Below, in pieces: positions 2,661 to 43,231 of a DNA stretch of 59,859 nucleotides. Below the pieces are notes generated by a model. The model was given only the letters and a program-made list of their open reading frames with translations. It searched no databases and had not been told where the DNA came from. The position numbers and the translations under genes are program-made. The stretch's first letter is position 1. Each line of letters begins with the position of its first letter. This DNA is from an uncultured delta proteobacterium (lineage in GTDB: Bacteria; Desulfobacterota; Desulfomonilia; UBA1062): NCBI GenBank assembly GCA_963752595.1, contig CAVVYZ010000029.1:1-59859 (forward strand), read 5' to 3'.

Positions 2661-2662
2661 CC

Positions 2663-9014: not shown

Positions 9015-9540
9015 CCGAGCCCCCTCATGGTTCCGTTTCTGCACTCCATCAAGTGCTCCTCGGAAACCATGTCGGGGCGGCTGACTACTTCCCGGGGGAC
9101 ACATTCCCCCCGGCCCCTTTGAAAAACTCCTTTAATCTCCTTAAAACGAAAAACCTAAAAACCCTCTGGGTGGTATACTTTCACTTTCCCATTTTGGGTC
9201 CCTTTTATCATTCCCAGAGACAATGATCTCCAAAAGGACCTCGATTTATGGCTATACAAGTACAACAACCAGAGGACTCACCAGGGTAAACGGTGCCAGG
9301 GGAGAACACCCATGGATACTTTTAATGATAACCTTCCTCTGGCGAAAGAAAAATGGATCAGTTATATGGATGAAGGGCATGCTGATGGTTTTCTCGCTGA
9401 TGACCATCTGACAGCTCATATCTGATCAGACAACAACCCTCAGAAAGGGGGCCACCTGTCAGATCGGATTGTAGCTACTACACTTAATTATATCCTGTGC
9501 TATTCATTTCCTGTGGCACAGAATGGTGCTGAATAGTTAC

Positions 9541-10320
9541 TCATACTTTACCATATATTTTAAGAGCATTTTCTATTTGTTCTCTCGATGGTGCTTCATA
9601 GTAACCTTTTCTACTGATTTTTGTTCCCGATACATCTTTTAAAATAATCATCATTTCAGTCATTTTCATTAATGCTCCCGATACATCTAAAACAGTGGCT
9701 CCATCAATTTGAGTCATTCCTCCATTAACCATTATTAAATTTAAACAACCACATCCAGGAAGTAAAACCTCAGCCCCATTATTAACTGCTTCTTTCCCAG
9801 CCTTTTCAAATCTCTCTAGTACAGGCTTTGCATCAGTGAAGCCTTTTTCCAGTTCTGTTAACGGGAGATTAAAGCTAGTGAATTTAACTGTTCTACTGGA
9901 CAAACCATATTTATGGGGCAATTCACGATAAACTTTATTATTACTTTGTGGTACATACGAAATAACCGAAAAATACTTGCCCAGCATACTAGCAGTAAGC
10001 ATACCTGCTTCACCTAAGCTCAAAACCGGTATATCAACGATCTCCCTCAGTTCATCTAAAATCGGATCTAAGAAACATCCTATTGCAACTGCATCAAAGC
10101 CTTCCTTTTCTGCTTTTATAACACTATCAAATACATTTGAATTATTTAAAAAATCAAATGACATGAAATGAAGATCGGATGTTCCACTTTGAACACCTCT
10201 GACTGATATTTCAAATTCCGAACTAAGGATCCTGTTAGCATGTTCCATAATAGCTTTTTCATATGCAGGGAATCCTTTTATTGCGGTGCTACTTTGCCAT
10301 AATATTTTATATTTACTCAT
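9541..10320 (-). CDS. Asp/Glu/hydantoin racemase-family protein
   Basis: AEKEGFDAVAIGCFLDP and GAEVLLPGCG contain both catalytic cysteines; strong RBS. Confidence 0.85.
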   Translation of the reverse strand: MSKYKILWQSSTAIKGFPAYEKAIMEHANRILSSEFEISVRGVQSGTSDLHFMSFDFLNNSNVFDSVIKAEKEGFDAVAIGCFLDPILDELREIVDIPVLSLGEAGMLTASMLGKYFSVISYVPQSNNKVYRELPHKYGLSSRTVKFTSFNLPLTELEKGFTDAKPVLERFEKAGKEAVNNGAEVLLPGCGCLNLIMVNGGMTQIDGATVLDVSGALMKMTEMMIILKDVSGTKISRKGYYEAPSREQIENALKIYGKV

Positions 10321-10435
10321 TCACTTCCTCCTTCTAATAATTGATTTACTTTTTTCGACCATTACTCCGGCAAATCAGTATAGTGAAACGCTTACGGAAT
10401 TTCGGCCTAAAGATGGAGCAAAGCTGGCTGATATC

Positions 10436-10466
10436 AAAAAAGGAACCGGGGTGTTCCCCGGTTCCC
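10436..10466 (-). terminator. Intrinsic terminator after the porin gene
   Basis: Minus strand GGGAACCGGGG-AACA-CCCCGGTTCC-TTTTTT. Confidence 0.8.
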
Positions 10467-10496
10467 ACGAGGTGGGATCTTGTAACGGGTAATTCT

Positions 10497-11627
10497 TTAG
10501 AAGCTGATCTGCCACTTGGCACCGAAGTAGGTCGTATCCTTTTTCTCGTCTTTGCCGTCGGAACCGTCACCGTAATCAAGCACGCCAACCTCAGGCACTA
10601 CGATGAACGGTCCATATACAGGCACTGTAACATTCATGTAGTATGCCATCGCCGTGTTCTTATCGGAACCGCTTTCATCATACTCAGAGGAAACATAACC
10701 TACCCCTGCTTCCACCGTGTACTTGTCGATCTTCGTCCCGGCCACAAAATGAGCACCGAAGTTCTCCTCATCCACCAGATCTCCTGTTGCATCAAATTTC
10801 GCACCTGTTCCATCGGTGTGGGCAAGATTGAAGTTCCTCGCATTCTGTGCATAATAAACCTGTGCCCTGATGAATATCGGATCCAGCTTGAGGCCGCCTC
10901 CGATACCTGCTGTCCAGGCATTCACGGTCTTATCGCCGTAGTTGACCCCCCCCATAACGATGTCCTCAACACCGTAAGAGAAAAATCCACCGAACACATC
11001 CGCAAAAAACTTCTCCTGATCGACGTGGTAACGAACTTCGAACTTGGGCATGAGCACGTCCACATCTCCTGTGTCCGCATTCAGATCCGATGATGCCTTG
11101 TCCTCAACAAGTGCGATCTCAAGACCCTTCATTTTGAACTTGATCTGGGGGGTCCTGGTTTCGTAGATCGCTCCCCATCCCAACAAATCAGTGTCATCAA
11201 GAACAACCTGATTGCTGTAGAACATGCTCCCGATCGGCGTCCAGTCCTGCCCAAAGGTGACGGTACCGGCACCAAAGTCGTAAGTCCCATAGATCAACCT
11301 TGTATACACTCCTGAACCGCCGCTTGCTGTCGAATCGTCATCCAACCCAACCTCATACACACCCGTGATCTTGTCCTTGATCATCTTGCCGCCTAACCTG
11401 GCATTGGCCGCCGAATCCCATCTGAGATCCTTATCGTCGCTGTCGGCATTAAGATCCCTGTCATTATAAAAGGTCTGATACCGCGCACTGCCGTAAATCG
11501 TCCAGCTCCCAATAGTCTGTTCCAGCGCCTTTACACGATCTTCAATCGTCTTGTCCTCTGCCGTAACCGGAACAGTGAAAACAAAAACTAAACCAACCGC
11601 AACTAGTAAAATCGTTAGCCTCTTCAT
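10497..11627 (-). CDS. Outer-membrane porin-like beta-barrel protein
   Basis: Signal peptide, short coiled coil, amphipathic beta strands and C-terminal aromatic signature YFGAKWQISF. Confidence 0.8.
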   Translation of the reverse strand: MKRLTILLVAVGLVFVFTVPVTAEDKTIEDRVKALEQTIGSWTIYGSARYQTFYNDRDLNADSDDKDLRWDSAANARLGGKMIKDKITGVYEVGLDDDSTASGGSGVYTRLIYGTYDFGAGTVTFGQDWTPIGSMFYSNQVVLDDTDLLGWGAIYETRTPQIKFKMKGLEIALVEDKASSDLNADTGDVDVLMPKFEVRYHVDQEKFFADVFGGFFSYGVEDIVMGGVNYGDKTVNAWTAGIGGGLKLDPIFIRAQVYYAQNARNFNLAHTDGTGAKFDATGDLVDEENFGAHFVAGTKIDKYTVEAGVGYVSSEYDESGSDKNTAMAYYMNVTVPVYGPFIVVPEVGVLDYGDGSDGKDEKKDTTYFGAKWQISF

Positions 11628-11845
11628 GTTGATTCTCCTCTTTATGTATTACATTTTTTTACTTCCCAGTAAGTAGTTTGGAGAAAACAAGGGTTAGCGC
11701 GGCAAATGCCCCATCCATCTCAATACTTCAATACTGAGATCAGCCCTGTTCAAATCATCTCATTCTTCTTTTATGGATAGCTCGCCTGCACTATTCGCTC
11801 CTTATGTCCTTGAACTCCTGTTCCTGAATTCACCCGGTTAACTAG

Positions 11846-11918
11846 AAAAAGGCACTTTTGTAGGATTTCGTGCCCATGAGCGTATCCTTCGGTTCAGCTC
11901 AAACCAAAGGATACGCCC
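11846..11918 (-). terminator. Tandem hairpins after the dehydratase gene (stabiliser and/or terminator)
   Basis: Long stem GAGCGTATCCTTCGGTT/AACCAAAGGATACGCCC, followed on the minus strand by GGCAC..GTGCC-TTTTT. Confidence 0.55.
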
Positions 11919-11942
11919 CTTCTTCCTAAACAAAATCCTTGC

Positions 11943-13415
11943 TTAATACCAAGAACGCTTCTCCCGGAATATACCCTTCGTTGAACCTTCAAATTTTATC
12001 CCGGCAAGCTTCTTGACAATGTTTTTCGAATGCTCAAAATTATGATCCCGGTAAATGGCTACCTTCTCGATCACCGGGGATCCGCCACCATGAAGCGCAT
12101 CGATGAGTTTATGCCCCCCCCATACCGAGGACATCATGTCCTGGAAGAGCCGGAAGGCACGGTGCTGGTTTTCGGCCGAGATGTCGGGATTGCGCATGAT
12201 GTACTTTTCCAGATAGGGTCCTGTCTTTTCATTATAGAAGTCTTCCTCATGAGGCAGCGTCGCTGACAAACCGCCCGCAATGGCTGCCAGGGCTTCATAT
12301 TCCCCGTAAATTGCCTCTCCTGCCAGCATGCGTCCGGCATTACAGTAATTTGTATCGGGTATGCAGGTGCCGCAACCGGCCTTTGTACTGTTCATGGCTG
12401 CCCCAAGGCCTGATGCATAAATCAGGTCGACAACCTGGATCATTTCAGCCAGCTTATGGCGCACATGCTGGGCTTTCTCGATGCCGTTGTATTCGGCCGC
12501 AAGGGCTGTCGCCCCGGTGTATATTTCTGAAACAGCTGCTTTGCAGCCTGTGTAACTGTGCCGATGATACAGGGCAAAGAAGAGGGCCGCTTTCCCTGCC
12601 TGTTCCGTTTCACCGCAGAGGAAGACACGATCCCAGGGAACGAAGACGTGGTCAAAAATCGTCATGGAGTGAGATTCACCCTGTCTGTTGTAAGGTGCGT
12701 CAAGGCGTTTGCGTTGCGGCGGATTGAAGGCGCCGTTGATGAGCGTGACGCCCTCGGTATCGGCGGGGATCGAGAAGGCCACGGCCCAGTCTGCCTCGTC
12801 GGAAACCATGTTTCGGGTGGGCAAAACAACGATCTCGTCAGCATAAGCTGAGCAAGAATTGTGGGCTTTGGCGCCGTTGACGATGATGCCGTCAGCGCGT
12901 TTCTCCACGACCCGCAGATAGAGGTCAGGGTCTTTCTGCTTACCGGGGCGCCAGACACGGTTTCCCTTGACATCGGTCTGTGCGCAGACCAGAGAAAGAT
13001 CCTCCGCCTGTACCTTTTTCATGAATTCGATGAAATTTTTGTAATAACTCGTGCCATGCTGCTGATCCGCATCATAGCTGGCGATGGACAGGGCATTCAG
13101 GGCGTCGATGCCCATGCAACGCTGGACACAGCCGCCGATCTCCTGACAATACAGTCGCGTCATCTTCTGCTTGTTCAACAGATCTTCCATATTCTGATGA
13201 ATATGGGTAAAACGGTTGATCTTTTCCCCCGTGATATGGGAAGTGGCGACACCGACCCCGTCGTACTCCGGGTCAACCGCGAAATCATACGTGGCGGCAA
13301 TGACATTGATGCCGCCGATGATACTCTGGTCAAAGCGGTCAACCAACTTTCCCCCTTGATAAATATTTGGCTTAAGTTTCGCCATCCTATCCTTATACTC
13401 TTTACTTGAAATCAT
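11943..13415 (-). CDS. 4-hydroxybutyryl-CoA dehydratase / vinylacetyl-CoA isomerase-like protein (AbfD/HpaB family; FAD and 4Fe-4S)
   Basis: GGCVQRC and YHRHSYTGCK retain the Cys/Cys/His/Cys cluster ligands of AbfD; QTDVKGNR, DPDLYLRVVE and LHGGGSP motifs. Confidence 0.85.
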   Translation of the reverse strand: MISSKEYKDRMAKLKPNIYQGGKLVDRFDQSIIGGINVIAATYDFAVDPEYDGVGVATSHITGEKINRFTHIHQNMEDLLNKQKMTRLYCQEIGGCVQRCMGIDALNALSIASYDADQQHGTSYYKNFIEFMKKVQAEDLSLVCAQTDVKGNRVWRPGKQKDPDLYLRVVEKRADGIIVNGAKAHNSCSAYADEIVVLPTRNMVSDEADWAVAFSIPADTEGVTLINGAFNPPQRKRLDAPYNRQGESHSMTIFDHVFVPWDRVFLCGETEQAGKAALFFALYHRHSYTGCKAAVSEIYTGATALAAEYNGIEKAQHVRHKLAEMIQVVDLIYASGLGAAMNSTKAGCGTCIPDTNYCNAGRMLAGEAIYGEYEALAAIAGGLSATLPHEEDFYNEKTGPYLEKYIMRNPDISAENQHRAFRLFQDMMSSVWGGHKLIDALHGGGSPVIEKVAIYRDHNFEHSKNIVKKLAGIKFEGSTKGIFREKRSWY

Positions 13416-13431
13416 TTTCGTATCCTCCGTT

Positions 13432-15180
13432 CTATTTTATTCCCAGTTCCTGTTTGATTAGCTCGCGCAACTTGTATTTTTCGATTTTACTGGTTGGGGT
13501 TTCCGGCAGCTGCTCAACGAAGCGTATATATTTGGGCCACATAAATTTCGGCATTGCTTTCTTAATCCATTCCCTCATTTCCTCTTCACCCAGTTTCTCT
13601 CCCGGATTGGGCACAATGAACGTAACGATGTCCTGCTCACCTCCGACCTCGGCAGGAATCGGGAAGGCACCGCAAATGTTCACTTTAGGGTGCCCATTTA
13701 TAATATCTTCCACCTGGTAAGAAGAAACAAACTCACCCTTTACCCGAATTACACTTCCCATCCTATCCACGAAGAAATAAACGCCCTCGTTGTTTTTGAA
13801 ACAGGCATCTCCCGTATGGAACCAAAGATTTCTAAAGGCTTTCACCGTGGCTTCCGGTTTATTGAAATACTCTTTCACAAACAGGCTCGGGAATCTGGGT
13901 CTGAAAACCAATTCTCCGGCTTCCCCAGGGGCGCATTCTTCATCCAGATCATTCAATATATTGGCTTCAAACAAAAGGGAGGGCTTCCCCAAAATTCCCT
14001 TTGTCTCTTCTTTTTTTGCATCCACGATGCAAATATTGAATTTGTTCGCTATGCTGAAAATTTCTTCCTTTGACATCCCCTTATACAGATCCGGAGGTGT
14101 TCCCTGTTCATCTTTCAGCTCATCGATGATACAGATAGATCCACTCCCCGTTTCTGTCTGCCCGAACCCTGTAATAACGAAATCGAAGCCGAATCGTTTT
14201 GCAACATCATGATGATACTGGGGCATAGGAGCCATATAGACTTTATTCAAAGTGTTCTTGTAGTCATCAGGGGTTTCCGGCGTATTCATCAACCAGGGAA
14301 CCATGACATCCAGCAAGACAGCTGATGTGGACCCACTCTTTTTGACTCGTGCCCAGAAATCCTTGATGCTGAATTTATCCCAAACAGCACATTCACATCC
14401 TACCCAAAGTGCTCTGACAAGGTTGAAAAATGCCCCGGCCACATGATAGAGGGGAAGATCGCTGTATATGACATCTTCCTGATTAAATATTCGCCTCCAG
14501 TTGAAGACATAATTGTTTAACCAACGATAAGTTTGGACAACTCCCTTTGGTGAGCCTGTGGTCCCGGAGGTGTAGATGATATTCGCCGTATCCATATAAC
14601 ATAATTCAGTATCTAAATTGGACGTTTCCCCCTTGGTCATTTCCTCAAAAGAAATCTCTGAATAAAATTTGTCCAAAAATATATTTCCAAGATCCGGTTT
14701 GTAATCGTGATCCTTTTCTTTTGGGGTGTACACAATGACATTGGATGTATCGAACTCCCCCTTCACGTCATTCAATAAGGGGATTAATTCTCGTTCGATG
14801 AAAATTGCTTTAGGACTTGAATCTTTGATTTGGTAGGCTAGAAGCCGACCCTTATAATTAAAATTGATCGGACAAAATACTGCTCCTGTTTTCCATATTC
14901 CGAACATAACCGTTGCAGTAATCAAAGGGTTTTTCAAAAAAACACAAATTCTATCGCCCTTATTTATGCCCAAAGATCTGAGGTTATGACCGATACTGTT
15001 AGCGATCTGATTGAATTCGTTAAAAGTCAGCTTAAGATCTTCTTCTCCATAATAAATAAACGTTCGATCTTTTGCTTCCAGAGCCCATTTCTCCAATATA
15101 TGGGTTACGATTTCTCCGTCTTTCGTCAATTCATTCTTGATATCGTTGTAATTCATAATCACCTCTCTCGTTGCTATCAT
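13432..15180 (-). CDS. ATP-dependent acyl-CoA ligase (CaiC-like)
   Basis: YTSGTTGSPKG, GFGQTE, NLWFHTGD and LPETPTSKI motifs. Confidence 0.9.
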   Translation of the reverse strand: MIATREVIMNYNDIKNELTKDGEIVTHILEKWALEAKDRTFIYYGEEDLKLTFNEFNQIANSIGHNLRSLGINKGDRICVFLKNPLITATVMFGIWKTGAVFCPINFNYKGRLLAYQIKDSSPKAIFIERELIPLLNDVKGEFDTSNVIVYTPKEKDHDYKPDLGNIFLDKFYSEISFEEMTKGETSNLDTELCYMDTANIIYTSGTTGSPKGVVQTYRWLNNYVFNWRRIFNQEDVIYSDLPLYHVAGAFFNLVRALWVGCECAVWDKFSIKDFWARVKKSGSTSAVLLDVMVPWLMNTPETPDDYKNTLNKVYMAPMPQYHHDVAKRFGFDFVITGFGQTETGSGSICIIDELKDEQGTPPDLYKGMSKEEIFSIANKFNICIVDAKKEETKGILGKPSLLFEANILNDLDEECAPGEAGELVFRPRFPSLFVKEYFNKPEATVKAFRNLWFHTGDACFKNNEGVYFFVDRMGSVIRVKGEFVSSYQVEDIINGHPKVNICGAFPIPAEVGGEQDIVTFIVPNPGEKLGEEEMREWIKKAMPKFMWPKYIRFVEQLPETPTSKIEKYKLRELIKQELGIK

Positions 15181-15202
15181 GAATTTTAATCTCGGCCGGG
15201 TC

Positions 15203-15272
15203 TATTCCTCGCAGCTTGCTGCGTTCCTTGAACTTGCTTTTGATACCTCGCATTTTGCTTCCGGGTAATTCT
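15203..15272. repeat. Degenerate REP-like palindrome pair
   Basis: CCTCGCAGCTTGCTGCG and TTTGATACCTCGCATTTTGCTTCCGGG resemble the reverse complement of the 561-684 insertion (TTTGATACCCCGTAGCTTGCTACAG). Confidence 0.5.
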
Positions 15273-15343
15273 TTCAACGATGCCAAAGTTTAACAACTCG
15301 TGGCTTTCTTTCATAAAACTCAATTATTTTTTATTCTGAGATA

Positions 15344-15766
15344 TCATTTTTCTCTTGCCCGCATCATAGCCTTCATTTCCCCTTCCGCAACAGTTTCATT
15401 TCTTTGATTATAGGTTCTGATTTTAAAGACAATGATGCCTTTATCTCTTCTTTTAGTAAGGGATGCTTCAGTGACGACATATTTTATTTTCAGAGTGTCG
15501 CCTGACAACACCGGGGTTTCATACCGCCAAGAATTATTTATAATTCCCATCAGAGTTCCCTCATAGAATCCTTGCCTTGTCATGAGCCCGGCGGAAATCA
15601 TTGTAATAAGCATCTCAGGTGCTGATTGTTCTCCCGAGATAAAATAATCCGGCCAACCTGACATCTCGTTAAATAGTTTAATATCTGTGAGAGTGATTGT
15701 CTTGCCTACACTGCCATCTGATTTTCCGATCGGAAAATCTTCAAAATACAAACCTAATGTTTCCAA
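15344..15766 (-). CDS. MaoC-like (hot-dog) dehydratase subunit
   Basis: LYFEDFPIG, ITLTDI..F..SG, PVLSGDTL and NQRNETV; no clear D-x4-H motif. Confidence 0.8.
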   Translation of the reverse strand: METLGLYFEDFPIGKSDGSVGKTITLTDIKLFNEMSGWPDYFISGEQSAPEMLITMISAGLMTRQGFYEGTLMGIINNSWRYETPVLSGDTLKIKYVVTEASLTKRRDKGIIVFKIRTYNQRNETVAEGEMKAMMRAREK

Positions 15767-15825
15767 GCTTCACTCCTTTTCCCAAAAATATTATTTTTTA
15801 TATATTCGTATTCTCGGTTTGCCTT

Positions 15826-16260
15826 TCACTTTGTTCCTTCTATTTCAATTGTCATTTTTCCCTTAGAGACAGCGTTTTCTTTGTTTTTCTTGACTTCAAA
15901 ATTCATTTTCAATGACTCCAAATTGTTTGAAAGACTGGCCCTCTTTTCAATATTAAAAAATCCCTTTATAACATCTCCGACGTGTACGGCCCCGAGATAA
16001 CTTACATTTATCTCGCTTACTTTTACTTTGCTCGCTGCTCCGAAGTGCATTTTCAGAAGTTGACCGATGGCCATGGATGTTACAGAGTTTCCATGGACGA
16101 TCGTTGTGCCGAAGGGAGACTTTTCCATGCCTGGTTTATTTGTATGAAGTTGAGCATCCCCTTCCCACAAAATGCCCAAAATCAGATTCCTTTCGCTGAA
16201 TAATTGTTCTTCAGTCTCTAAAGTCGTTCCAACTTCAATCTGTTCGAATTTTTTATTCAT
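15826..16260 (-). CDS. MaoC-like (hot-dog) dehydratase subunit
   Basis: GDAQLH..SPFG..IVHG..AVHVGD. Confidence 0.8.
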   Translation of the reverse strand: MNKKFEQIEVGTTLETEEQLFSERNLILGILWEGDAQLHTNKPGMEKSPFGTTIVHGNSVTSMAIGQLLKMHFGAASKVKVSEINVSYLGAVHVGDVIKGFFNIEKRASLSNNLESLKMNFEVKKNKENAVSKGKMTIEIEGTK

Positions 16261-16272
16261 ATATTCTCACCA

Positions 16273-17052
16273 TCACTTTAATTTTTTAAAATCCGGATTC
16301 CTTTTTTCGACAAAAGCCTGCATGCTTTCAATTTGCTCAGGAGTTCCAAAGCACAAGGAGTTTGCCTCTAATTCATAAAAATCAGCCACTGATTCAGGAG
16401 ACTCACTTTGCATGCGCAATACCTGCTTTGCCATCATTAACGCCTTGGGAGACTTCTCAATCAATTTCTTTGCTATCTCATTAGCCTTGTTCATGAGTAA
16501 GTCGTTCGGTACGACCCAGTTAACCAACCCCATCAAATAAGCCTCTTGTGCTTTAATCGTTTCACCGAGCATGACGATTTGGGCTGCTCGAAAGCGTCCC
16601 ACCACCCTTGGAAGATAGGAAGCCCCCTTGATGTGTCCTACATTGATCTCTTGCTGCCCGAATTTTGCTCCCTCAGCAGCAACAATGAGATCAGTAGAAA
16701 AGGCAATCACAGCCCCTCCGCCGAAGGCAAATCCGTTGACAGCTCCGATGATGGGCTTGCTTAAGCCTAACATTTGTTCCCGAACTTCGTGATACCATGT
16801 TGCATACTCTCGATACTGGAACGAATTTTGGTCGGCCATTAAAGAAATATCCGCACCGGCAATGAAAGCCCGCCCGATCCCCGACATTATAATTACCCTG
16901 ATGTCCTGATCTTTTTCTGCATGTTTTAAGGCTTCCGTAATCTCACTTTGCATTTCCGGGATTAAAGAATTCAGCTTTTCCGGACGGTTAAAAAATATGC
17001 TGCAAATCCCTTCAATGGATTCAACTTTTATATAGGTAAATTCTTTTTTCAT
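16273..17052 (-). CDS. Enoyl-CoA hydratase/isomerase (crotonase) family protein
   Basis: NRPEKLNS, AFIAGADI, AVNGFAFGGG, KFGQQEINVG and AFVEKRNPDF. Confidence 0.92.
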   Translation of the reverse strand: MKKEFTYIKVESIEGICSIFFNRPEKLNSLIPEMQSEITEALKHAEKDQDIRVIIMSGIGRAFIAGADISLMADQNSFQYREYATWYHEVREQMLGLSKPIIGAVNGFAFGGGAVIAFSTDLIVAAEGAKFGQQEINVGHIKGASYLPRVVGRFRAAQIVMLGETIKAQEAYLMGLVNWVVPNDLLMNKANEIAKKLIEKSPKALMMAKQVLRMQSESPESVADFYELEANSLCFGTPEQIESMQAFVEKRNPDFKKLK

Positions 17053-17075
17053 TTTATCTCCGATGCGTAAAAACT

Positions 17076-17780
17076 TTATATGCCCAAATACGCTTTTCTG
17101 ACATGATCGTTGTCCAAAAGCTCTTTTCCTTCCCCTTGCATCACGACTTGACCGTTTTCCAATACGTAAGCTCTATGTGCAACGCTTAAGGACCTGTTGA
17201 CGTCTTGTTCCACCAACAATATAGAAACACCGGTTTCATTGATCTTTTGTATTGTTTCAAAAACCTCATTCACTATCTTAGGAGCCAACCCGAACGAAGG
17301 CTCGTCGAGCATCAGCATTTTAGGCTCAGCCATTAATGCCCGAGCTATTGCAAGCATTTGCTGCTCTCCTCCGCTCAGAGTTCCTGCCATCTGATTTTTT
17401 CTTTCCTTTAAGATAGGAAACATATCCATAACTTTATCGAGCAAATTCTTTACTTTTGTTTTATCTTTCTGTACCCATGCACCAAGTAAGAGGTTATCGC
17501 TGACGGACATTTTTGTAAAAATTGACCGTTCACCAGAAACAATCGATAAACCCATTTCTACGATACGATGAGCGGGGGCATTTTGAATTTCGTTACTTAG
17601 TAATTTGATGGTCCCAGACTTCGATGGGATAAAACCACCTATCGAATTTAAGAGAGTTGATTTGCCAGAACCATTTCCTCCAATGACTGAGACGAATTCC
17701 CGGTCTTGGACTACAATGGAAATATCTTTTAATACATGTAACTCGCTGTAATATACATTGATCGATTCTATCTCTAACAT
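17076..17780 (-). CDS. Branched-chain-amino-acid-type ABC transporter ATPase (LivF-like)
   Basis: GGNGSGKST, LSGGEQQM, LDEPS. Confidence 0.93.
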   Translation of the reverse strand: MLEIESINVYYSELHVLKDISIVVQDREFVSVIGGNGSGKSTLLNSIGGFIPSKSGTIKLLSNEIQNAPAHRIVEMGLSIVSGERSIFTKMSVSDNLLLGAWVQKDKTKVKNLLDKVMDMFPILKERKNQMAGTLSGGEQQMLAIARALMAEPKMLMLDEPSFGLAPKIVNEVFETIQKINETGVSILLVEQDVNRSLSVAHRAYVLENGQVVMQGEGKELLDNDHVRKAYLGI

Positions 17781-18527
17781 TGTAATTCCTTCTTTCCCAG
17801 ATAGGCGTCTATTACAGTCTCGTTCCTGACGATTTCTTCCGGTGAGCCTTCTGCGATTTTTTCACCATGGTTCAGGACTATCAACCATTGAGACACATTC
17901 ATTATGAACTTCATGACGTGTTCGATGATCAGTACGGTAAGCCCTTTTGCAGAAAGCTTTTCTATTAAATCTATCATTTCGAGAGTTTCTTTTGGAGTCA
18001 GACCGGATATTGCCTCATCCAAGAGTAAAAGCTTGGGGGAAGTTGCCAATGCTCGACATATTTCCAATTTCTTTCTACTGGCAATAGGCAGCTCTCCGGG
18101 AGTAGAAGCAGCAAAATTATCAAGATCCACTTCCTTTAATAATTCCATTGCCTTATCTTTACACTTATCACAATCATATGAATGTTGCAGCGCACCTATA
18201 ACGACATTTTCTAACACACTCATGTTTGTAAATATTTTCGGTAACTGAAAGGTTCGCCCGATTCGCAAGTGTCGCCCTTTTATATGGATAGAGATTATTT
18301 ATTTCTTTTTGGTTGAATTTTATTACCCCCTTGTCCAAAGGTATGAAACCGCTGATCATATTAAATAATGTAGTCTTGCCCGCTCCATTCGGCCCTATAA
18401 GCCCTATTATTGCACCTCGCTTAATGTTCAGAGTTACTCCCTGCAACGCATGGATGCCGCCAAAACTTTTTGTAATATCTTTGAGTTCAAGAATATTTTC
18501 ACTTTTCTCATTATTAATATTCAACAT
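17774..18527 (-). CDS. ABC ATPase (LivG-like), frameshifted near 18265
   Basis: GPNGAGKTT in 18174-18527 continues as IGRTFQ..LLLLDE..IEH in 17774-18268. Confidence 0.88.
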
Positions 18528-18627
18528 ATTAATATCCTTTTTATAACTGGTTTTATCGTTAACTATCCTGTTTTTTCATATTCTTACAATTTATCGCGTT
18601 TTATTTCCTTTACCAGTTAATTTATCT

Positions 18628-19617
18628 TCAGGGATTAGAAGTTTTTTTAATAAATTTTTCATTTATCAGTGATATCCCTTTCATCATTCCGCCGGGCAAG
18701 AAAAGGATGATAACGATTAAAATTATGCCATAAGCAAAGAAACCAACGGGTGTAAACAATCCACCGATCCAACTACGGAAGAAAGTACTTAATGGAACAA
18801 GTAGACCTGCGCCCAGAATCGGCCCTGCAATTGTCCCCATACCTCCGACAATTGCGAAAACGGCAAACTGAACGGAAAAATCCACGGAAAAAACCATCGC
18901 AGGCTCGATATACCGAGTGTACATGCAATAAAAACCACCGCCGATAGCCGTAAAGAACCCACTTACCGCAAACACGGCAAGTTTTATCCGGAAGGTGTTA
19001 ACCCCCAAACTCTTGGCTGCTTCTTCGTCTCCGCCGGTTGCAAGCAAATAATAGCCAATTCTGGATTTTGTTATCTTAAGGACAACGAAGACCATCAACA
19101 AAAGAAGAATATACGCCAAATAGGTGTAATAAATTTCATTAGTAAAGGTTAAATATTTAAATCCCGGTGTATCAGGAATTGTCGTTCCCAATCCCGAAGA
19201 ACCGAGTCGCCAGTATGTGACGAGAACTCGAAGCGCCTCTGCACAAGCAATCGTGGAAAGCGTAAAAAAGAAAGCTCTTAGTTTGAATGTCGCAAAACCT
19301 ATCAAAAGCGACAATATGAGGCCAAAGATCCCACCCAGAAACATGCCGATCCAGGGCGATACCCCATAGTCGGCATAAAGAATACCTGTTATGTATGCCC
19401 CGATACCAAAGAAAGCCACGTGACCAAGTGAGAATTGTTTCCCAAAACCGGAAATGAGATTCCATGCCTCTGAAAAGAAAGCAAAAATAAACACTAAAGT
19501 CAGCATGTGTAAATAAAAATGTCCTGACGATAAGAGTGGAAGAATACCCAGTACAATCAATAAAATAATTAAAGGGTCCTTGATATATTTTTTCAAGCGA
19601 TTGTATGTTACTATCAC
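18628..19617 (-). CDS. ABC permease (LivM-like)
   Basis: WNLISGFG.QFSLGH.AFFGIGAY, DEEAAKSLGV, GGMGTIAGP. Confidence 0.92.
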   Translation of the reverse strand: MIVTYNRLKKYIKDPLIILLIVLGILPLLSSGHFYLHMLTLVFIFAFFSEAWNLISGFGKQFSLGHVAFFGIGAYITGILYADYGVSPWIGMFLGGIFGLILSLLIGFATFKLRAFFFTLSTIACAEALRVLVTYWRLGSSGLGTTIPDTPGFKYLTFTNEIYYTYLAYILLLLMVFVVLKITKSRIGYYLLATGGDEEAAKSLGVNTFRIKLAVFAVSGFFTAIGGGFYCMYTRYIEPAMVFSVDFSVQFAVFAIVGGMGTIAGPILGAGLLVPLSTFFRSWIGGLFTPVGFFAYGIILIVIILFLPGGMMKGISLINEKFIKKTSNP

Positions 19618-20489
19618 TACGCTCTCCTCTCTTTGATCCCAAATATTCCATTTGGACGGATCATTAAAATTGCCAGGAACATTGCGAAATAAGCAAAGGT
19701 AGTCAGGGTTGAATCAAAATAATATCCCACAAGCATTTCCATCATTGCGATAACGATAGCTCCCACAATGGTGCCCATCAGGCTCCCTATCCCCCCGAGA
19801 ACAACAATAATCCAGCAAAGCAGATTCAAATGAGTACCGATAGTTGGATGAACGCTTTCAAAAGTGACAAGGGAAGTGCCGCTTACTGCGATGCAGCATA
19901 ACCCCAGTCCTGCGGCAATTGCATAAATTTTATGAACATTGATTCCAATCATCATGGCTCCTTTTCGTTGTTCCGAAACGGCTCTGATGGCTCTACCCGT
20001 ATTTGTATAATTTAAGAATAAGAGCAGAACTATTATTAAGATTACGGCAGTTAACGAGCTGTATATATGAGAATAATCTATATACTGACCCCAAATTTGG
20101 AACACGTCTGCACTATAACTTGTGGAAGCACTTTTATAATCCGTTGAGAATAAAAGCATCGCTCCATACTGAAATACAAAGGAAAGACCGAATGTGGCGA
20201 TAATTTGTGATTCTTCGGGAGCATCCAACAATCTTTTAAATAATCCTTTATATACTACTATCCCGAAGATAAAAAATAATGGCACCATTATGATAAGGCC
20301 TACATAGGGGTCAGCCCCAATGAAAAGGCTCACGAAGAGGCCTCCATACATCGCCAGCATAATAAAGTCACCGTGTGCAAAATTAATCAACCCGAGTGTT
20401 CCGAAAACGATCGATAACCCTAACGCCATGAGGGCGTAGGTTGTACCGGTAAGGCAACCATTAATTATCAATTGAACAAAGATTTCCAC
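19617..20489 (-). CDS. ABC permease (LivH-like)
   Basis: YALMALGLSIVFG..INFAHG, GRAIRAVSE, VVLGGIGS; GTG start at 20489 has an RBS. Confidence 0.9.
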   Translation of the reverse strand: MEIFVQLIINGCLTGTTYALMALGLSIVFGTLGLINFAHGDFIMLAMYGGLFVSLFIGADPYVGLIIMVPLFFIFGIVVYKGLFKRLLDAPEESQIIATFGLSFVFQYGAMLLFSTDYKSASTSYSADVFQIWGQYIDYSHIYSSLTAVILIIVLLLFLNYTNTGRAIRAVSEQRKGAMMIGINVHKIYAIAAGLGLCCIAVSGTSLVTFESVHPTIGTHLNLLCWIIVVLGGIGSLMGTIVGAIVIAMMEMLVGYYFDSTLTTFAYFAMFLAILMIRPNGIFGIKERRA

Positions 20490-20508
20490 GGCCTTATCCT
20501 CTACTTTC

Positions 20509-20535
20509 AAAAGGGGGGGAGCACCCCCCCTTTTT
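20509..20535. terminator. Hairpin with U-tracts between the binding-protein and permease genes
   Basis: AAAAGGGGGGG-AGCA-CCCCCCCTTTTT; typical position for tuning binding-protein stoichiometry. Confidence 0.65.
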
Positions 20536-20564
20536 GATAAAAAATCATTTAATGAACGGTTGCC

Positions 20565-21890
20565 TTACTTAATAAGCAATTTATTGACCTCTTTCTGGTC
20601 GATAGCCCTTTTGCCGAAATCAGGTATTGGAAATACTGCATTAAGTTCTGCTGCATCTTTTGGCCAGACTGCATAGTACTGCCCGTTAAATATCTGTCTC
20701 GCAACTATGCCGGCTTTGATATTCTGCCCAGCCCGCACTGGATCCGTGCTTGGGGCAAATTTAATTCCACCGGGTCGGACTGTTGCCGAGGTAGGCAAAT
20801 CTAAACCTGCGACCGCTTTGGCTATCCTTGCCGGATCTAAAGAGCCGGCTTCCGGAAGAACATATTCATAAAGCGCTATAGCAGACGTAAATCCTATAGC
20901 CACATCCGAGGCACCTGATACGGTTTTATTGTACTTTTTCTGGTACCTGTTAAGAAATTCTTGGTACTGAGACCGGACTCCCGGACTCGCTTTTTGGATT
21001 CCGCCCCCTACCTGGTTAATATCCAAAACGTAATTCATATCTGTTCCAAACTTCTGGAAAGCCTCATCAACATAAGCCCACGGGCATCCATCAGCTACCC
21101 ATATTTTAGGATTAAGGCCATTCTTTCTCGCATCACGAAATAGCCGGTAGCCATCATCCAAATAATTCTGTGTATGGACGATATCCGGTTTTGTCCTCTT
21201 TATTTTTAGAATCAAGGATGAGAAATCCATGGTATTCGGGTCATAAGGAGCATCAATTACTATATTAAGTCCTAATTCTTTTGCCCTTTTGATGAAACCA
21301 TCATGACTTAAAGACTTCCCCCACTCTGTACCTTGATAGACGACTGCTATCCTTAAATCCTTTGGTTTCATCTTTAATTTTGGGGCCATCAATTCAACAA
21401 CACAATCTGCAGCTTGCTCCCCCCAACCGCTAGCCATTGGTCCGCAGAAATAGGTATTCTTGTGACCCATCTGCCGTAATCTGTCGGCTATCGCATTTGT
21501 CTCCCAAAAAACTACGTTGTATTTGTTAGCAATCGGGTGAACAACAAAAGCAAGCGAGCTCGAATATACGCCAATTAAAAGTTTTACTTTTTCTACCGTA
21601 ATCAGCCGTTCAGTCTCAGTTCTCGCAGATTCTGAATTTGCTGCATCTCCGGTCACCAAATAAATTTTTTGTCCATTCCAAATCCCGCCCTTTTCATTAA
21701 CCATATCAGTTGCTATTTCTATTCCCCTTAAAACTTCCCTTCCGATGGGAGCCTGCGGGCCGGTAAGCGGAAGAATGACACCGATTTTGACACCTGCGGA
21801 AGCTGGGGCAGCCATCGCACGATCTCCTAATGGAATCAATAAAAGACAAAACATTGAAACAATCACGAAACTTCCCAATAACCTCTTCAT
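20565..21890 (-). CDS. Periplasmic substrate-binding protein (LivJ/K-type fold)
   Basis: Signal peptide; KIGVILPLTG, NEKGGI, ERLITVEKV..IG.YSS, DFSSLILKIK. Confidence 0.92.
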   Translation of the reverse strand: MKRLLGSFVIVSMFCLLLIPLGDRAMAAPASAGVKIGVILPLTGPQAPIGREVLRGIEIATDMVNEKGGIWNGQKIYLVTGDAANSESARTETERLITVEKVKLLIGVYSSSLAFVVHPIANKYNVVFWETNAIADRLRQMGHKNTYFCGPMASGWGEQAADCVVELMAPKLKMKPKDLRIAVVYQGTEWGKSLSHDGFIKRAKELGLNIVIDAPYDPNTMDFSSLILKIKRTKPDIVHTQNYLDDGYRLFRDARKNGLNPKIWVADGCPWAYVDEAFQKFGTDMNYVLDINQVGGGIQKASPGVRSQYQEFLNRYQKKYNKTVSGASDVAIGFTSAIALYEYVLPEAGSLDPARIAKAVAGLDLPTSATVRPGGIKFAPSTDPVRAGQNIKAGIVARQIFNGQYYAVWPKDAAELNAVFPIPDFGKRAIDQKEVNKLLIK

Positions 21891-21946
21891 TATTTATCTC
21901 CTTCTCTCTTTGATGCTTTATGGTATTTTTTCTCCAAGCCACCTTA

Positions 21947-22570
21947 TCAATAAAGAATATCTAGCCTAGTCAGTTTCAAGCCATTGATGGAGAAGTTGAA
22001 TATAAATTCAGCAACATCATCGATTGACAGCTGTCCTCTGGGTGAATACCAGATAATCGTTCGAGTAATCATGGAAGCGATGTATCGTGCGGCCATCTTT
22101 GCATCTATTTCGTTAAATTCCTTTGCTTCTATTCCTTTTTGAATTATTCCAGCAAGGATTCGATCATATTTATCTCGTAAAAGAATCACTTTTTCTCGGT
22201 TATTTTTGGAAAGCCTTTCTAAACCCGTATCAAACAAAAATCGGGATGTTTTCTGGTAATTTAAAACATGTTTGATATGGATAAGAATAAACTCTCGTAA
22301 TTGCTCACTGGGCTTGCTAGTGCGGTCATTTTCCAAATAGCATATCCTTTCAAGTAACCGCATGTTTTGTGCATAAAGATACTCAAATAGTATTTCTTCC
22401 TTGCTATGGAAAAAGTTATAGATATTAGCAGGCTTGCATTTACAGGCTTTGGCTATATCCCTCATGGATGCACCGCTATATCCCTTCTTCCAAAAAATAG
22501 TACTGGCTTTATCTAGTATTTGTTCTCTTCGTGGACTTATACTTTTTGGTTCCTGCTTCATTTTGCTCAT
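21947..22570 (-). CDS. TetR/AcrR-family regulator
   Basis: HTH nearly identical to that of 2663-3280; lies within the catabolic operon. Confidence 0.92.
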   Translation of the reverse strand: MSKMKQEPKSISPRREQILDKASTIFWKKGYSGASMRDIAKACKCKPANIYNFFHSKEEILFEYLYAQNMRLLERICYLENDRTSKPSEQLREFILIHIKHVLNYQKTSRFLFDTGLERLSKNNREKVILLRDKYDRILAGIIQKGIEAKEFNEIDAKMAARYIASMITRTIIWYSPRGQLSIDDVAEFIFNFSINGLKLTRLDILY

Positions 22571-22572
22571 GT

Positions 22573-24369
22573 CTAGATTAAGAGATCCGAGGTTATCTCA
22601 AGCACGGTTTTGTCACTCGTTCTCATGGCCTCCACCTTTCCATAGATGGTAGGCAGCACCGAACTGATATAATATTTGGCCGTCATGAGGGTGCTCTCAT
22701 AAAATCTTCGTTCGGTTGTGGCCGTTGCCAACTTTCCCTGCGCTATCATTGCCCGCCATAGATGCTGCCACCCAAATACAACATCGCCAAATATCTCAAG
22801 ATACTGGGTGGCCCAGGAAGTAGCCAGGTAGGCTTCTTCCGATGCATTCTTCTTGAGCAGAAACGTCGTGACCTCCTCGAGGGTAAAGACCGCCTTGGAT
22901 AATTCCTCTGCATACCATGTCAGCCCTTCAACCTTTGAGGCTTCCGATATCGTTTCTTTGACCTTCCCTAAAAGGGTCTGATAGACTTCCCCTTTTCTCA
23001 TCTTTAACTTCCGGCCAAACAAATCCAATGCCTGTATCCCGTTCGTCCCTTCGTAAATGGCGGTTATCCTTGTATCCCTTGCAAATTGCTCAACTTCATT
23101 ATCTTCGCAATACCCGTAACCCCCTAAAATCTGCATCGCCCTGCTGCACACTTCAAACGATTTGTCGGTCGAACAGGCTTTGCATACGGGAGTCAGAATA
23201 TCGACCATGTCTTGCCATTTCTGCTTTTCGTTTGCATCTTCGCAGACCATTTCCATGTCCATGCAAAACATAGTATAAAGGATTAGTGATCTCATCCCTT
23301 CCACATATGATTTCATCCACAGAAGATGCCTTTTTATATCGGGATGCTCGATAATGGGGACCTGCTCATAACTTTTGCTTGCGAATCCCCTCCCCTGCAT
23401 TCGCTCTTTTGCATAATCCAAAGCATCGAAATACGCTCTCGCCGCTTGCGCCAGTCCTTCCAGCCCAACTAATATCCTTTGCTCGTTGAGCATATGGAAC
23501 ATTACCGAAATTCCCATTCCCCGAGGACCAAGCAACTCTCCCTCACATTGCCCATTTTCTCCAAAAGTTAATGAGCATGTCGAAGAAGCTTTTAACCCCA
23601 TTTTATGCTCTATTCCCGTGCAAACGACATCGTTCCGTTCGCCTAAGGACCCATCTTTATTTACTTTTACATTCGGAACAATAAAACAGGAGAGCCCTTT
23701 TGTCCCATCAGGATCCCCTTCAATTCTTCCTAATAAAATATGAATAACATTGTTGGACAGGTCATGTTCTCCCGCCGTTATAAATATTTTTTGTCCCGTA
23801 ATTGAGCAGATGTTCCCATCACGAACAATTCCCTTGGTTCTGATATTGCCTAAATCGCTTCCTGCTTGGGGCTCGGTCAAAGTCATTGTCCCTGCGAATC
23901 GACATGCATAAAGGGGAACCATGTACTTTTCCTTTTGTTCAGGAGTCCCGTAAGCCTTGATTACTCTTGCAGCGCTGTGTGTATTACCAAGGTATATCTG
24001 CAGAGACATATTTGCGGCGTAAAACATTTCACAACAGGCAAAATGCAATGTGTAGGGCGCATTCTGGCCTCCCACGTCCTCAGCTTCGGGCAGGGCAAGC
24101 CATCCCCCTTCAACATACTTCGAAAACGGTTTATGAAAGGATTCCGGCACCTTTACGGAATTATCTTTCCAAACACAGCCGGCCTTGTCCCCCAATTTAT
24201 TCGTAGGCGCAAATTCATTTACTGCCAATTTCTCGGCCGCGGCCAATATCATTTCAACCGTTTCCCGTGAATGACCGCTAAACCGATCATAACTGAACAA
24301 TTTCTCAACGCCCAACTGGTCAAAAAGTACAAATCGTGTGTCCCCTATTCCAATTACCTTTTTACTCAT
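22573..24369 (-). CDS. Acyl-CoA dehydrogenase (~600-aa DmdC/FadE5-like type)
   Basis: GTMTLTEPQAGSDL, ITGQKIFIT, IEHKMG, QILGGYGY and IYEGTNGIQALDL (catalytic Glu). Confidence 0.93.
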   Translation of the reverse strand: MSKKVIGIGDTRFVLFDQLGVEKLFSYDRFSGHSRETVEMILAAAEKLAVNEFAPTNKLGDKAGCVWKDNSVKVPESFHKPFSKYVEGGWLALPEAEDVGGQNAPYTLHFACCEMFYAANMSLQIYLGNTHSAARVIKAYGTPEQKEKYMVPLYACRFAGTMTLTEPQAGSDLGNIRTKGIVRDGNICSITGQKIFITAGEHDLSNNVIHILLGRIEGDPDGTKGLSCFIVPNVKVNKDGSLGERNDVVCTGIEHKMGLKASSTCSLTFGENGQCEGELLGPRGMGISVMFHMLNEQRILVGLEGLAQAARAYFDALDYAKERMQGRGFASKSYEQVPIIEHPDIKRHLLWMKSYVEGMRSLILYTMFCMDMEMVCEDANEKQKWQDMVDILTPVCKACSTDKSFEVCSRAMQILGGYGYCEDNEVEQFARDTRITAIYEGTNGIQALDLFGRKLKMRKGEVYQTLLGKVKETISEASKVEGLTWYAEELSKAVFTLEEVTTFLLKKNASEEAYLATSWATQYLEIFGDVVFGWQHLWRAMIAQGKLATATTERRFYESTLMTAKYYISSVLPTIYGKVEAMRTSDKTVLEITSDLLI

Positions 24370-24442
24370 TTGAAATGCCCTCTCAGATCCTCAGCATCTT
24401 AGATGTTTTTCTTTTATTAACGATCGCCCATCAATTTGATTA

Positions 24443-24458
24443 ATTAACATTCGTTAAT
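24443..24458. promoter_or_regulatory. Putative TetR operator palindrome upstream of the catabolic operon
   Basis: ATTAAC-ATTC-GTTAAT; half-site ATTAACGATCG at 24416-24426; TTGACA on the minus strand at 24486-24491. Confidence 0.55.
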
Positions 24459-24500
24459 ATTTCTCCTAGAGTATTTTGTAGATGGTGTCAAGATTTTTTT

Positions 24501-25300: not shown

Positions 25301-25341
25301 CATTCAAGAGGTCGAGAGTTCGATTCTCTTCGGCTCCACCA
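25301..25341 (+). other. 3' half of tRNA-Ala (att-site-like island border)
   Basis: CAT-TCAAG-AGGTC-GAGAG-TTCGATT-CTCTT-CGGCTCC-A-CCA gives the 3' anticodon stem, T-arm, acceptor strand with U70 and CCA. No 5' half is present. Confidence 0.8.
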
Positions 25342-25377
25342 ATTTTTTAATCCGGCAAACCTGTCAAATGACCCGTT

Positions 25378-43200: not shown

Positions 43201-43231
43201 CTTCGTTATCGGATCGGCGCTGTGTTCCTTT

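What the first reader, a model, noticed from the sequence alone, without database searches (positions are those of the whole stretch)
9541..24458. Island-borne CoA-dependent catabolic cluster with an unassigned enzyme combination: candidate undescribed pathway
Seen: 14 co-oriented genes form a complete uptake-to-catabolism module. They include a porin, a five-gene Liv-type ABC importer, a CaiC-like ligase, an acyl-CoA dehydrogenase, a crotonase, two MaoC proteins, an AbfD-family Fe-S/FAD dehydratase, a two-Cys racemase and a TetR with a palindromic site. Established: AbfD enzymes catalyse radical dehydration of 4-hydroxyacyl-CoA, and TetRs of this type often sense CoA esters. Inference: the cluster imports a chiral, perhaps cyclic or hydroxylated carboxylate, racemises it, activates it to the CoA ester and channels it into beta-oxidation. 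I do not recognise this combination as a described pathway and cannot name the substrate.
Basis: partly seen in the sequence, partly recalled or inferred. Interest (0 to 1): 0.8.

Follow-up and report, generated by a model that had tools for sequence, protein, structure and literature searches.

The report
Acid-breakdown island with variant radical dehydratase
An anaerobic bacterium carries a horizontally acquired-looking block of 14 genes that likely imports an as yet unidentified organic acid and likely strips a group from its fourth carbon with an unstudied variant of a radical enzyme, so that ordinary fatty-acid-type breakdown can continue.

Summary
The 14 minus-strand genes are real, sit in a low-GC, IS-flanked island and match no characterised pathway. 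They are not a complete module: livG is frameshifted, there is no thiolase, and an SDR and a FadH/BaiCD-like flavoenzyme that relatives keep are missing. They are no chance mosaic either: a congeneric genome links 13 of the 14 genes (60-90% identity), ligase and AbfD-like genes are adjacent in five further records, and parts of the core recur in two other families. Outside this lineage the parts separate; the racemase link is the weakest. New details: the AbfD-like protein keeps all Fe-S ligands but belongs to a clade with T190S/E257H/E455D/A460G; the crotonase has one catalytic Glu; the MaoC pair is fused elsewhere; a tandem PaaR-like operator is conserved in 8 loci. Best reading (0.5): an auxiliary beta-oxidation module for an acid blocked at C4 and bulkier than 4-hydroxybutyrate. 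The substrate is not identified. The scan noted AbfD variants before on other DNA, not this cluster.

The parts
24486..24491 (-). TTGACA -35-like hexamer upstream of the operator
   Evidence: sequence; TTGACA also lies a similar distance before the operator at acd and maoC1 in G007 (49), present in 7 of 8 operator regions
24444..24457 (.). operator site 1, TTAACATTCGTTAA
   Evidence: consensus close to T. thermophilus PaaR site CNAACGNNCGTTNG (PMC9493321)
24417..24430 (.). operator site 2 (weaker partner of a tandem pair)
   Evidence: tandem pairs in 8 of 8 regions examined from 6 genomes
22573..24369 (-). acyl-CoA dehydrogenase, 598 aa, FadE5/DmdC class, IYEGT catalytic Glu kept
   Evidence: 81% orthologue in G007 (32)
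21947..22570 (-). TetR repressor, TetR_C_24 (KstR2/PaaR/PfmR-like)
   Evidence: 73-78% orthologues in G002, G005, G007
20565..21890 (-). LivK-type solute-binding protein; nearest solved relative is the L-pyroglutamate binder SAR11_0655 (8WCH), distant
   Evidence: (E 1.8e-27); 78% in G007 (32)
19617..20510 (-). LivH-type permease
   Evidence: 81% in G007 (32)
18628..19617 (-). LivM-type permease
   Evidence: 80% in G007 (32)
17774..18527 (-). LivG-type ATPase, split by one extra base near 18265 (real or assembly error not resolved)
17076..17780 (-). LivF-type ATPase
   Evidence: 84% in G007 (32)
16273..17052 (-). crotonase-fold protein with one catalytic Glu (E135 kept, V115 in place of the first Glu); likely an isomerase rather than a standard hydratase
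   Evidence: (same in 3 of 3 orthologues)
15826..16260 (-). MaoC1, hot-dog subunit with D35-x3-H39 hydratase dyad in a rare WEGD motif
15344..15766 (-). MaoC2, hot-dog subunit without the dyad; partner half of a double hot-dog
   Evidence: fused to MaoC1-like halves in P0417 and P0420
13432..15180 (-). CaiC/PRK06155-like acyl-CoA ligase, 582 aa
11943..13415 (-). AbfD-like Fe-S/FAD enzyme of an uncharacterised clade: C96, C100, H284, C291, Y288 kept; S187, H249, D439, G444 for T190, E257, E455, A460
10497..11627 (-). probable outer-membrane porin (DcaP/Porin_2/Porin_4-like), C-terminal Phe
   Evidence: homologue in G006 lies behind the same operator and TetR; folds failed
10441..10466 (-). terminator-like 11-pair hairpin with T run between porin and racemase
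   Evidence: such hairpins are not enriched overall: 13 against 13.8 expected
9541..10320 (-). two-Cys racemase/epimerase of the allantoin/hydantoin racemase branch (C82, C190)
3832..9216 (.). left flank: two inverted IS21 elements around an integrase-core transposase remnant
24564..25388 (+). right flank: ISL3 transposase fragment
2366..3280 (+). inverted 88%-identical remnant of the acd 3' end plus an intact second tetR (87%)

Best explanation
The block is a low-GC, IS-flanked, co-oriented gene cluster that likely works as an auxiliary beta-oxidation module for an organic acid whose fourth carbon carries a hydroxyl (or similar) group and which is likely bulkier than 4-hydroxybutyrate. Inferred steps: the porin and LivKHMGF import the acid; the ligase makes the CoA ester, which would release the TetR from the tandem operator; the AbfD-like enzyme removes the C4 group by flavin/Fe-S radical chemistry, with S187-H249 standing in for the T190-E257 proton relay and D439 for E455, and with E455D and A460G leaving room for a substituent at C4; the one-Glu crotonase moves a 3-enoyl double bond into conjugation; the MaoC1/MaoC2 heteromer hydrates and the acyl-CoA dehydrogenase desaturates; host thiolases and dehydrogenases finish. 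The SDR and FadH/BaiCD-like flavoenzyme kept by G007 and G298 would supply 4-oxo/4-hydroxy interconversion and dienoyl-CoA reduction. The racemase is probably an accessory that lets both stereoisomers enter. Shown: genes, motifs, synteny, operator conservation. Inferred: every reaction and the substrate class.
For: Synteny: G007 contig C89 has livK-H-M-G-F, ech, maoC1, maoC2, ligase, abfD in the same order at 60-90% identity, and 141-base contig-end overlaps join it to acd (81%) and to tetR-SDR-racemase (78%, 79%). G008 has livF-ech-maoC1-maoC2-ligase on a 3.2-kb contig. Consecutive accession numbers put ligase next to the AbfD-like gene in 5 further records; equal contig lengths tie racemase to ligase in 3 cases (circumstantial). 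Other families: G298 has SDR-flavoenzyme-maoC1-maoC2-ligase (74%, 68-76% to G007; 66/84/81% to the window), G357 has a deletion remnant joining maoC1 to the AbfD 3' end. Fe-S ligands and Tyr are intact in 118 of 120 homologues (2 truncated); S/T-H-D-G in 114 of 120; the 20 H/D proteins in the tree form one clade, support 1.0. T190, E257, Y296, E455 are reported important for AbfD (bioRxiv 2020.02.05.935528). The clade's neighbours elsewhere are Liv importers, CaiB CoA transferases, SDRs, acyl-CoA dehydrogenases, thiolases, hydroxyacyl-CoA dehydrogenases and FadH/BaiCD-like enzymes. The operator recurs before acd and maoC1 in G007, maoC1 in G008 and TetR or porin loci in G002, G005, G006, which argues for one regulon.
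Against: No activity or expression data. Outside the lineage the parts come apart: racemase and MaoC1 in 0 of 79 AbfD-like loci, AbfD in 0 of 80 racemase loci (many loci are short); of 23 genomes with this or the sister AbfD clade, 1 has a ligase hit and 2 have racemase hits, all distant and unlinked; G298 lacks this AbfD clade and the racemase. Codon GC differs strongly between genes. E257Q-type changes lower activity in canonical enzymes, so E257H may mean another reaction. The pocket argument rests on alignment, not on a model. In this genome the SDR and flavoenzyme orthologues were not found (best 35-41%; 113; genome 84% complete) and livG is split.
Confidence: 0.5

Rival explanations
1. 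A mosaic of separate cassettes (acd-tetR-Liv-crotonase; MaoC pair-ligase; AbfD-like; porin; racemase) gathered under one TetR, acting on several different acids rather than one pathway.
For: Parts occur apart outside the lineage; GC3 0.23-0.62; gene order of racemase, porin and tetR differs between G000 and G007; terminator before the racemase; the same TetR controls a different Liv importer plus SDR in G002 and G007.
Against: 13 of 14 genes stay linked in G007 although its copies have host-like GC3 (0.61-0.69); ligase-AbfD adjacency in 5 more records; maoC1-AbfD remnant in a third family; shared operators.
Confidence: 0.2
2. A C5-dicarboxylate route: 2-hydroxyglutarate, its lactone or pyroglutamate is racemised, activated at the distal carboxyl and converted by the AbfD-like enzyme to glutaconyl-CoA, H249 accommodating a carboxylate at C4.
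For: Nearest solved LivK relative binds L-pyroglutamate; DcaP-like porin hits; racemase relatives sit with PrpD, PrpF, aconitase-like, CitE-like lyases and mutases; carboxyltransferases lie beside the AbfD clade in 4 Dehalococcoidales loci and beside ligase homologues in G298, G559, G585 and two plasmids.
Against: LivK likeness is distant (E 1.8e-27) and binding residues were not compared; no lactonase, oxoprolinase or decarboxylase in the block; the carboxyltransferases are 512-535 aa and were not shown to be glutaconyl-CoA decarboxylases; racemase contexts cited are 25-66% relatives.
Confidence: 0.12
3. The AbfD-like protein is an ordinary 4-hydroxybutyryl-CoA dehydratase with functional substitutions, serving 4-hydroxybutyrate or a 6-hydroxy acid shortened once.
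For: All cofactor ligands, R87, Y288, K292 kept; S/H and D are chemically plausible replacements; the genome's two more canonical AbfD genes on C19 and C2 appear frameshifted.
Against: The clade is about 40% identical to canonical enzymes and coexists with them (L009, G007); five pocket positions differ together (M149Q, T190S, E257H, E455D, A460G).
Confidence: 0.1
4. In this genome the island is a decaying copy that no longer works, whatever the intact version does.
For: livG split; SDR and flavoenzyme not found; duplicated remnant and IS on both sides.
Against: 13 genes are intact; 1 of 32 other orthologues tested is also split and several housekeeping-like genes in the window are broken, so the split may be an assembly error; other LivG/F paralogues exist.
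Confidence: 0.25

Closest known systems
4-hydroxybutyryl-CoA dehydratase / vinylacetyl-CoA isomerase AbfD (C. aminobutyricum 1U8V; N. maritimus 6VJR)
   Same: Full-length homology (E 6e-101, 5e-96), Fe-S ligands C96/C100/H284/C291, R87, Y288, K292 (12).
   Different: T190S, E257H, E455D, A460G, M149Q, Q294H, conserved across a separate clade (69, 100, 124); sits with a ligase and MaoC pair rather than a 4-hydroxybutyrate CoA transferase and dehydrogenase (canonical context recalled).
Allantoin/hydantoin racemases (KpAllR 3QVJ, PfAllR 5LFD) and OpaE (9QBX)
   Same: PF01177 above cut-off; both catalytic Cys align (Cys79/Cys184 per PMC12661438).
   Different: Only E 2.5e-14 to KpAllR; no purine or hydantoinase genes nearby; own clade of at least 114 clusters at 44-92% identity.
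Carnitine cai operon (CaiABCD) and the DMSP-derived DmdBCD route
   Same: Ligase best matches PRK06155/CaiC models; dehydrogenase's best PDB hit is 6IJC (DmdC type, name recalled); crotonase present.
   Different: All below curated cut-offs; no BCCT transporter or CaiB; crotonase lacks the first Glu; AbfD-like, MaoC and racemase genes are not part of those pathways (recalled).
Auxiliary enzymes of unsaturated fatty-acid beta-oxidation (2,4-dienoyl-CoA reductase, delta3-delta2 isomerase, (R)-hydratase) and the aerobic levulinate lva route
   Same: One-Glu crotonase, double hot-dog hydratase and, in relatives, a FadH/BaiCD-like flavoenzyme; the lva route solves the same C4-hydroxyl problem (both recalled, no call).
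   Different: Here a radical Fe-S/FAD enzyme is proposed in place of lva's phosphorylation step; no lvaA/B-like genes in the block.
PaaR / KstR2 / MbdR-type acyl-CoA-sensing TetR regulators
   Same: TetR_C_24 domain, best PDB hits 3VPR and KstR2; operator matches the PaaR consensus core AACGNNCGTT (122).
   Different: No paa or steroid ring-degradation genes in the block; effector unknown.

Membership tests
4-hydroxybutyryl-CoA dehydratase (AbfD) | HpaB_N + HpaB domains, about 490 aa, best PDB hit AbfD | tested here: met
4-hydroxybutyryl-CoA dehydratase (AbfD) | [4Fe-4S] ligands C99, C103, H292, C299 | tested here: met
   C96, C100, H284, C291; 118 of 120 homologues
4-hydroxybutyryl-CoA dehydratase (AbfD) | catalytic T190, E257, Y296, E455 | tested here: not met
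   S187, H249, Y288, D439: one of four identical, two conservative
4-hydroxybutyryl-CoA dehydratase (AbfD) | activity on 4-hydroxybutyryl-CoA | not testable with these tools
   needs anaerobic assay
4-hydroxyphenylacetate 3-hydroxylase HpaB (database label of many homologues) | TIGR02309/02310 cut-off; no Fe-S cluster | tested here: not met
   174.5 against 480 and 72 against 885 bits; Fe-S ligands present
Asp/Glu/hydantoin racemase superfamily | PF01177 above gathering score and two catalytic Cys | tested here: met
   83.7 against 31 bits; C82 in 121 of 121, C190 in 118 of 121 (18)
Allantoin racemase proper | high identity to AllR and purine-degradation context | tested here: not met
   E 2.5e-14 only; no such neighbours in the window or in close loci L002, L089, L090, L093 (25)
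Crotonobetaine/carnitine-CoA ligase CaiC | NF005947 cut-off 651 (and PRK06155 cut-off 722) | tested here: not met
   240 and 334 bits
Two-Glu enoyl-CoA hydratase (crotonase) | both catalytic glutamates | tested here: not met
   V115 for the first Glu, E135 kept, in 3 of 3 orthologues
(R)-specific double hot-dog hydratase | one subunit with Asp/His dyad plus a partner hot-dog | tested here: met
   D35/H39 invariant in 14 aligned rows; fusions P0417, P0420; activity untested
DcaP/Porin_2/Porin_4 porins | profile hit or beta-barrel fold | tested here: inconclusive
   no Pfam hit; Atlas 0.95-0.97 with all ten best family hits in one clan; pLDDT about 30
Genomic island | atypical composition, mobile flanks, patchy distribution | tested here: met
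   long syntenic matches in 2 of 51 other genomes of the family; no integrase or tRNA junction found

The most novel reading that the evidence does not exclude
The H249/D439 clade is the first AbfD-type enzyme for a C4-substituted substrate, and this cluster encodes an undescribed anaerobic route in which a chiral five-membered lactone or lactam acid (2-hydroxyglutarate lactone or pyroglutamate type) or a related 4-hydroxy acid is racemised by a two-Cys enzyme, activated at the far carboxyl and radically eliminated to an enoyl-CoA without an ATP-dependent activator.
Probability: 0.2. Interest if true: 0.8.

Novelty: new variant of a known kind. Interest (0 to 1): 0.5.

Why it matters
AbfD is the only characterised member of its radical Fe-S/flavin family that I know of, yet uncultured anaerobes carry many variants (10 AbfD-like matches in G298, 7 in G357) that databases label as AbfD or as aromatic hydroxylases. 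This cluster puts one well-defined variant clade next to its own binding protein, ligase and repressor, so the substrate can be found by three simple ligand screens and the variant's reaction then tested. Relatives with the ligase-AbfD pair are seen on over 80 contigs, some labelled anaerobic digester, so the substrate may be a common but overlooked intermediate of anoxic carbon turnover. A dehydratase for C4-substituted acyl-CoAs would also be useful for bio-based unsaturated acids.

Tried and rejected
Porin structure: single-sequence and 7-row AlphaFold models had pLDDT 32 and 30, so no fold search was run. Sequencing runs: no RNA holder listed; two low-share DNA runs gave only short fragments across racemase, porin, AbfD-like, ligase, maoC and crotonase genes, none bridging them; the livG split could not be checked against reads. 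Rfam: 0 matches in 1-30000. Promoter and terminator scans are at chance level overall. Operator matrix on the own genome: 7 sites of score 14 or more, only the island site and one on C2 near 20 bits, not followed up; the shuffle test of tandem sites (0-4 of 300) is partly circular because the pattern came from those sites. WEGD MaoC profile in 401 genomes of the phylum of G531: only generic MaoC hits. Plasmid searches gave only distant homologues with other gene sets. The benzene 'Magic' cluster (PMC13101534, passages) shares only generic ligase/MaoC genes and has no AbfD gene in the listed table. Levulinate, lipoate and biotin as substrates: chemically attractive C4-blocked acids, but searches (0 papers) gave nothing linking them to such a cluster and no gene-context support was found. 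Steroid side-chain or bile-acid reading (KstR2-like TetR, MaoC pair, BaiCD-like neighbour): considered, all models below cut-off, not excluded. Zhang et al. 2015 on AbfD mutants was not held; the roles of E455/Y296 and A460 are recalled.


Full report
Observation. Profile and PDB searches support the family labels, none above a function-specific NCBIfam cut-off. The block has GC 0.43 against 0.53 and is lower than all 258 15-kb windows of the genome; two IS21 elements lie to the left and an ISL3 fragment to the right. It is not complete: livG is split by one extra base near 18265 relative to the intact G007 gene (2 of 33 orthologues tested in this genome are split, livG included, so an assembly error is possible), and there is no thiolase or hydroxyacyl-CoA dehydrogenase in it, though the genome has them elsewhere. 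The host name is not given; close homologues (84-88%) are labelled Desulfomonilia.

Is the combination conserved? Within the lineage, yes. Of 51 other genomes of the family, G007 and G008 have long syntenic matches and G027 has the AbfD-like gene alone. G007 contig C89 carries livK to abfD in the same order at 60-90% protein identity; 141-base overlaps at contig ends join it to acd and to tetR-SDR-racemase, so 13 of 14 genes are linked, with an added SDR and, downstream, a second Liv importer and a FadH/BaiCD-like flavoenzyme. Consecutive accession numbers place ligase beside the AbfD-like gene in five further records, and identical longest-contig lengths (506,769; 19,685; 30,322) tie racemase to ligase contigs (circumstantial). 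Among 401 genomes of the phylum the rare MaoC motif was strong in two others: G298 has SDR, flavoenzyme, maoC1, maoC2, ligase and a carboxyltransferase; G357 has a deletion remnant that joins maoC1 to the AbfD 3' end. Beyond that, no. In the best 79 of 603 AbfD-like loci from genome contigs, the racemase and MaoC1 had no hit and ligase hits were 23-34%; in the best 80 of 307 racemase loci no AbfD-like gene was seen, though many are short. Of 23 genomes chosen for having this or the sister AbfD clade, 1 had a ligase hit and 2 had racemase hits, distant and unlinked. G298 has no member of this AbfD clade and no racemase hit. GC3 runs from 0.23 to 0.62 across the block. The picture is a lineage-level cluster built from a MaoC-pair/ligase core, an AbfD variant and accessories.

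The AbfD-like enzyme. Against 1U8V it keeps C99, C103, H292, C299, R90, Y296 and K300 but has S187, H249, D439, G444 and Q146 for T190, E257, E455, A460 and M149. Among the 120 best of 4,778 homologues, ligands and Tyr are intact in 118 (2 truncated) and S/T-H-D-G is found in 114. In a tree of 90 proteins from fetched loci (one duplicate of the window protein dropped; loci shorter than 380 aligned residues not included) the 20 H/D proteins form one clade with support 1.0, inside a wider group that has Glu/Asp at 249 and mostly Ala at 439 (the loci were retrieved with clade-biased patterns). T190, E257, Y296 and E455 are reported as important, T/E forming the FAD proton relay (bioRxiv 2020.02.05.935528, passages and section 9). 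Ser-His can plausibly serve as that relay and Asp as the base for the Tyr (role recalled from Zhang et al. 2015, not held), so I read the clade as active but with a changed pocket. Its neighbours elsewhere are Liv importers, SDRs, CaiB CoA transferases, acyl-CoA dehydrogenases, thiolases, hydroxyacyl-CoA dehydrogenases, FadH/BaiCD-like enzymes and carboxyltransferases.

Other enzymes. The crotonase lacks the first catalytic Glu in 3 of 3 orthologues, which from general knowledge points to an isomerase or other non-hydratase role. MaoC1 keeps an Asp/His dyad in a rare WEGD motif (17 representatives at E 1e-10 or better among 1.84 billion); MaoC2 lacks it, and the two are fused in P0417 and P0420: one double hot-dog hydratase. 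The racemase has both cysteines (PMC12661438 passages); its relatives sit with PrpD, PrpF, aconitase-like, CitE-like and mutase genes, a dicarboxylate flavour. LivK's nearest solved relative is the L-pyroglutamate binder 8WCH (PMC11485210 passages), but distant. The porin is supported by the Atlas only.

Regulation. The palindrome alone is not significant, but a tandem pair of TT/GAACGNNCGTT(A/C)A-like sites lies before acd here, before acd and maoC1 in G007, before maoC1 in G008, and at TetR or porin loci in G002, G005, G006 and G007 (8 of 8 regions examined). The core equals the T. thermophilus PaaR site (PMC9493321 passages). This supports one regulon and, by analogy, an acyl-CoA effector.

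Mechanism. A C4 leaving group blocks beta-oxidation. An AbfD-type eliminase, a one-Glu isomerase, an (R)-hydratase, a broad acyl-CoA dehydrogenase and, in relatives, an SDR and a dienoyl-reductase-like flavoenzyme are the set one would need to clear such a block. I put 0.5 on this, 0.2 on a multi-substrate mosaic, 0.12 on the C5-dicarboxylate/lactam route, 0.1 on plain AbfD; independently about 0.25 that this genome's copy is decaying. All reactions are inferred.

Comparison and novelty. Nine paper searches (open-access library only, listings read unless stated) found no described pathway with this gene set; the one paper holding four of five terms describes an unrelated cluster. The protein is not filed as AbfD because the catalytic-residue test fails, although it probably works like one. 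Earlier scan notes describe other AbfD variants on other DNA, none this cluster; they are unchecked and not counted as support. Verdict: a real, lineage-conserved, undescribed CoA-dependent catabolic cluster, a new variant of a known kind, with unknown substrate; interest 0.5.

Noticed in passing
window 2366-3280 (+): Inverted 88%-identical remnant of the acd 3' end with an intact second tetR, left of the IS21 pair: trace of a second, deleted copy of the cluster. G007's assembly graph also implies a duplicated acd.
   Followed up: partly
G000 C19 65-79 kb and C2 55-57 kb: Two more canonical AbfD genes, both apparently frameshifted; the C19 one lies in a beta-oxidation cluster with thiolase, hydroxyacyl-CoA dehydrogenase, crotonase, a 56% acd paralogue, ligase and MaoC.
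   Followed up: partly
L245 1741-3980, L249 1615-3854 (G012, G025): A distant HpaB/AbfD-like gene lacking the Fe-S cysteines directly overlaps a 30% racemase paralogue in two other genera: an independent pairing of the same two families.
   Followed up: partly
L247, L248 (G007, G011): Operon of PrpD, PrpF, aconitase-like large and small subunits, racemase paralogue and an 886-aa aldehyde-dehydrogenase-like protein; looks like an unassigned dicarboxylate pathway.
   Followed up: no
L101, L103, L115: Sister racemase clade (35-38%) recurs with a CitE-like lyase, acyl-CoA dehydrogenase, CaiB CoA transferase, MaoC and Liv or TTT importer, resembling itaconate/methylsuccinate clusters.
   Followed up: partly
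G298, G357, G007: Single genomes hold 5-10 AbfD-like paralogues with different catalytic residues.
   Followed up: partly
L239, L241 (G559, G585): Ligase homologues (58-61%) sit with further ligases, two carboxyltransferase genes, a sodium:solute symporter and a 148-aa protein of no Pfam family; in G564 the homologue precedes a 2,4-diaminopentanoate-dehydrogenase-like gene.
   Followed up: partly
window 15184-15274: About 90-base element between maoC2 and ligase repeated on C5, C23 and in relatives; no Rfam match.
   Followed up: no
window 29335-30970 and 43180-44945: An ABC-F ATPase gene and a PEP-carboxykinase-like gene are also split into overlapping frames, suggesting indel errors in the assembly or local decay.
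   Followed up: no
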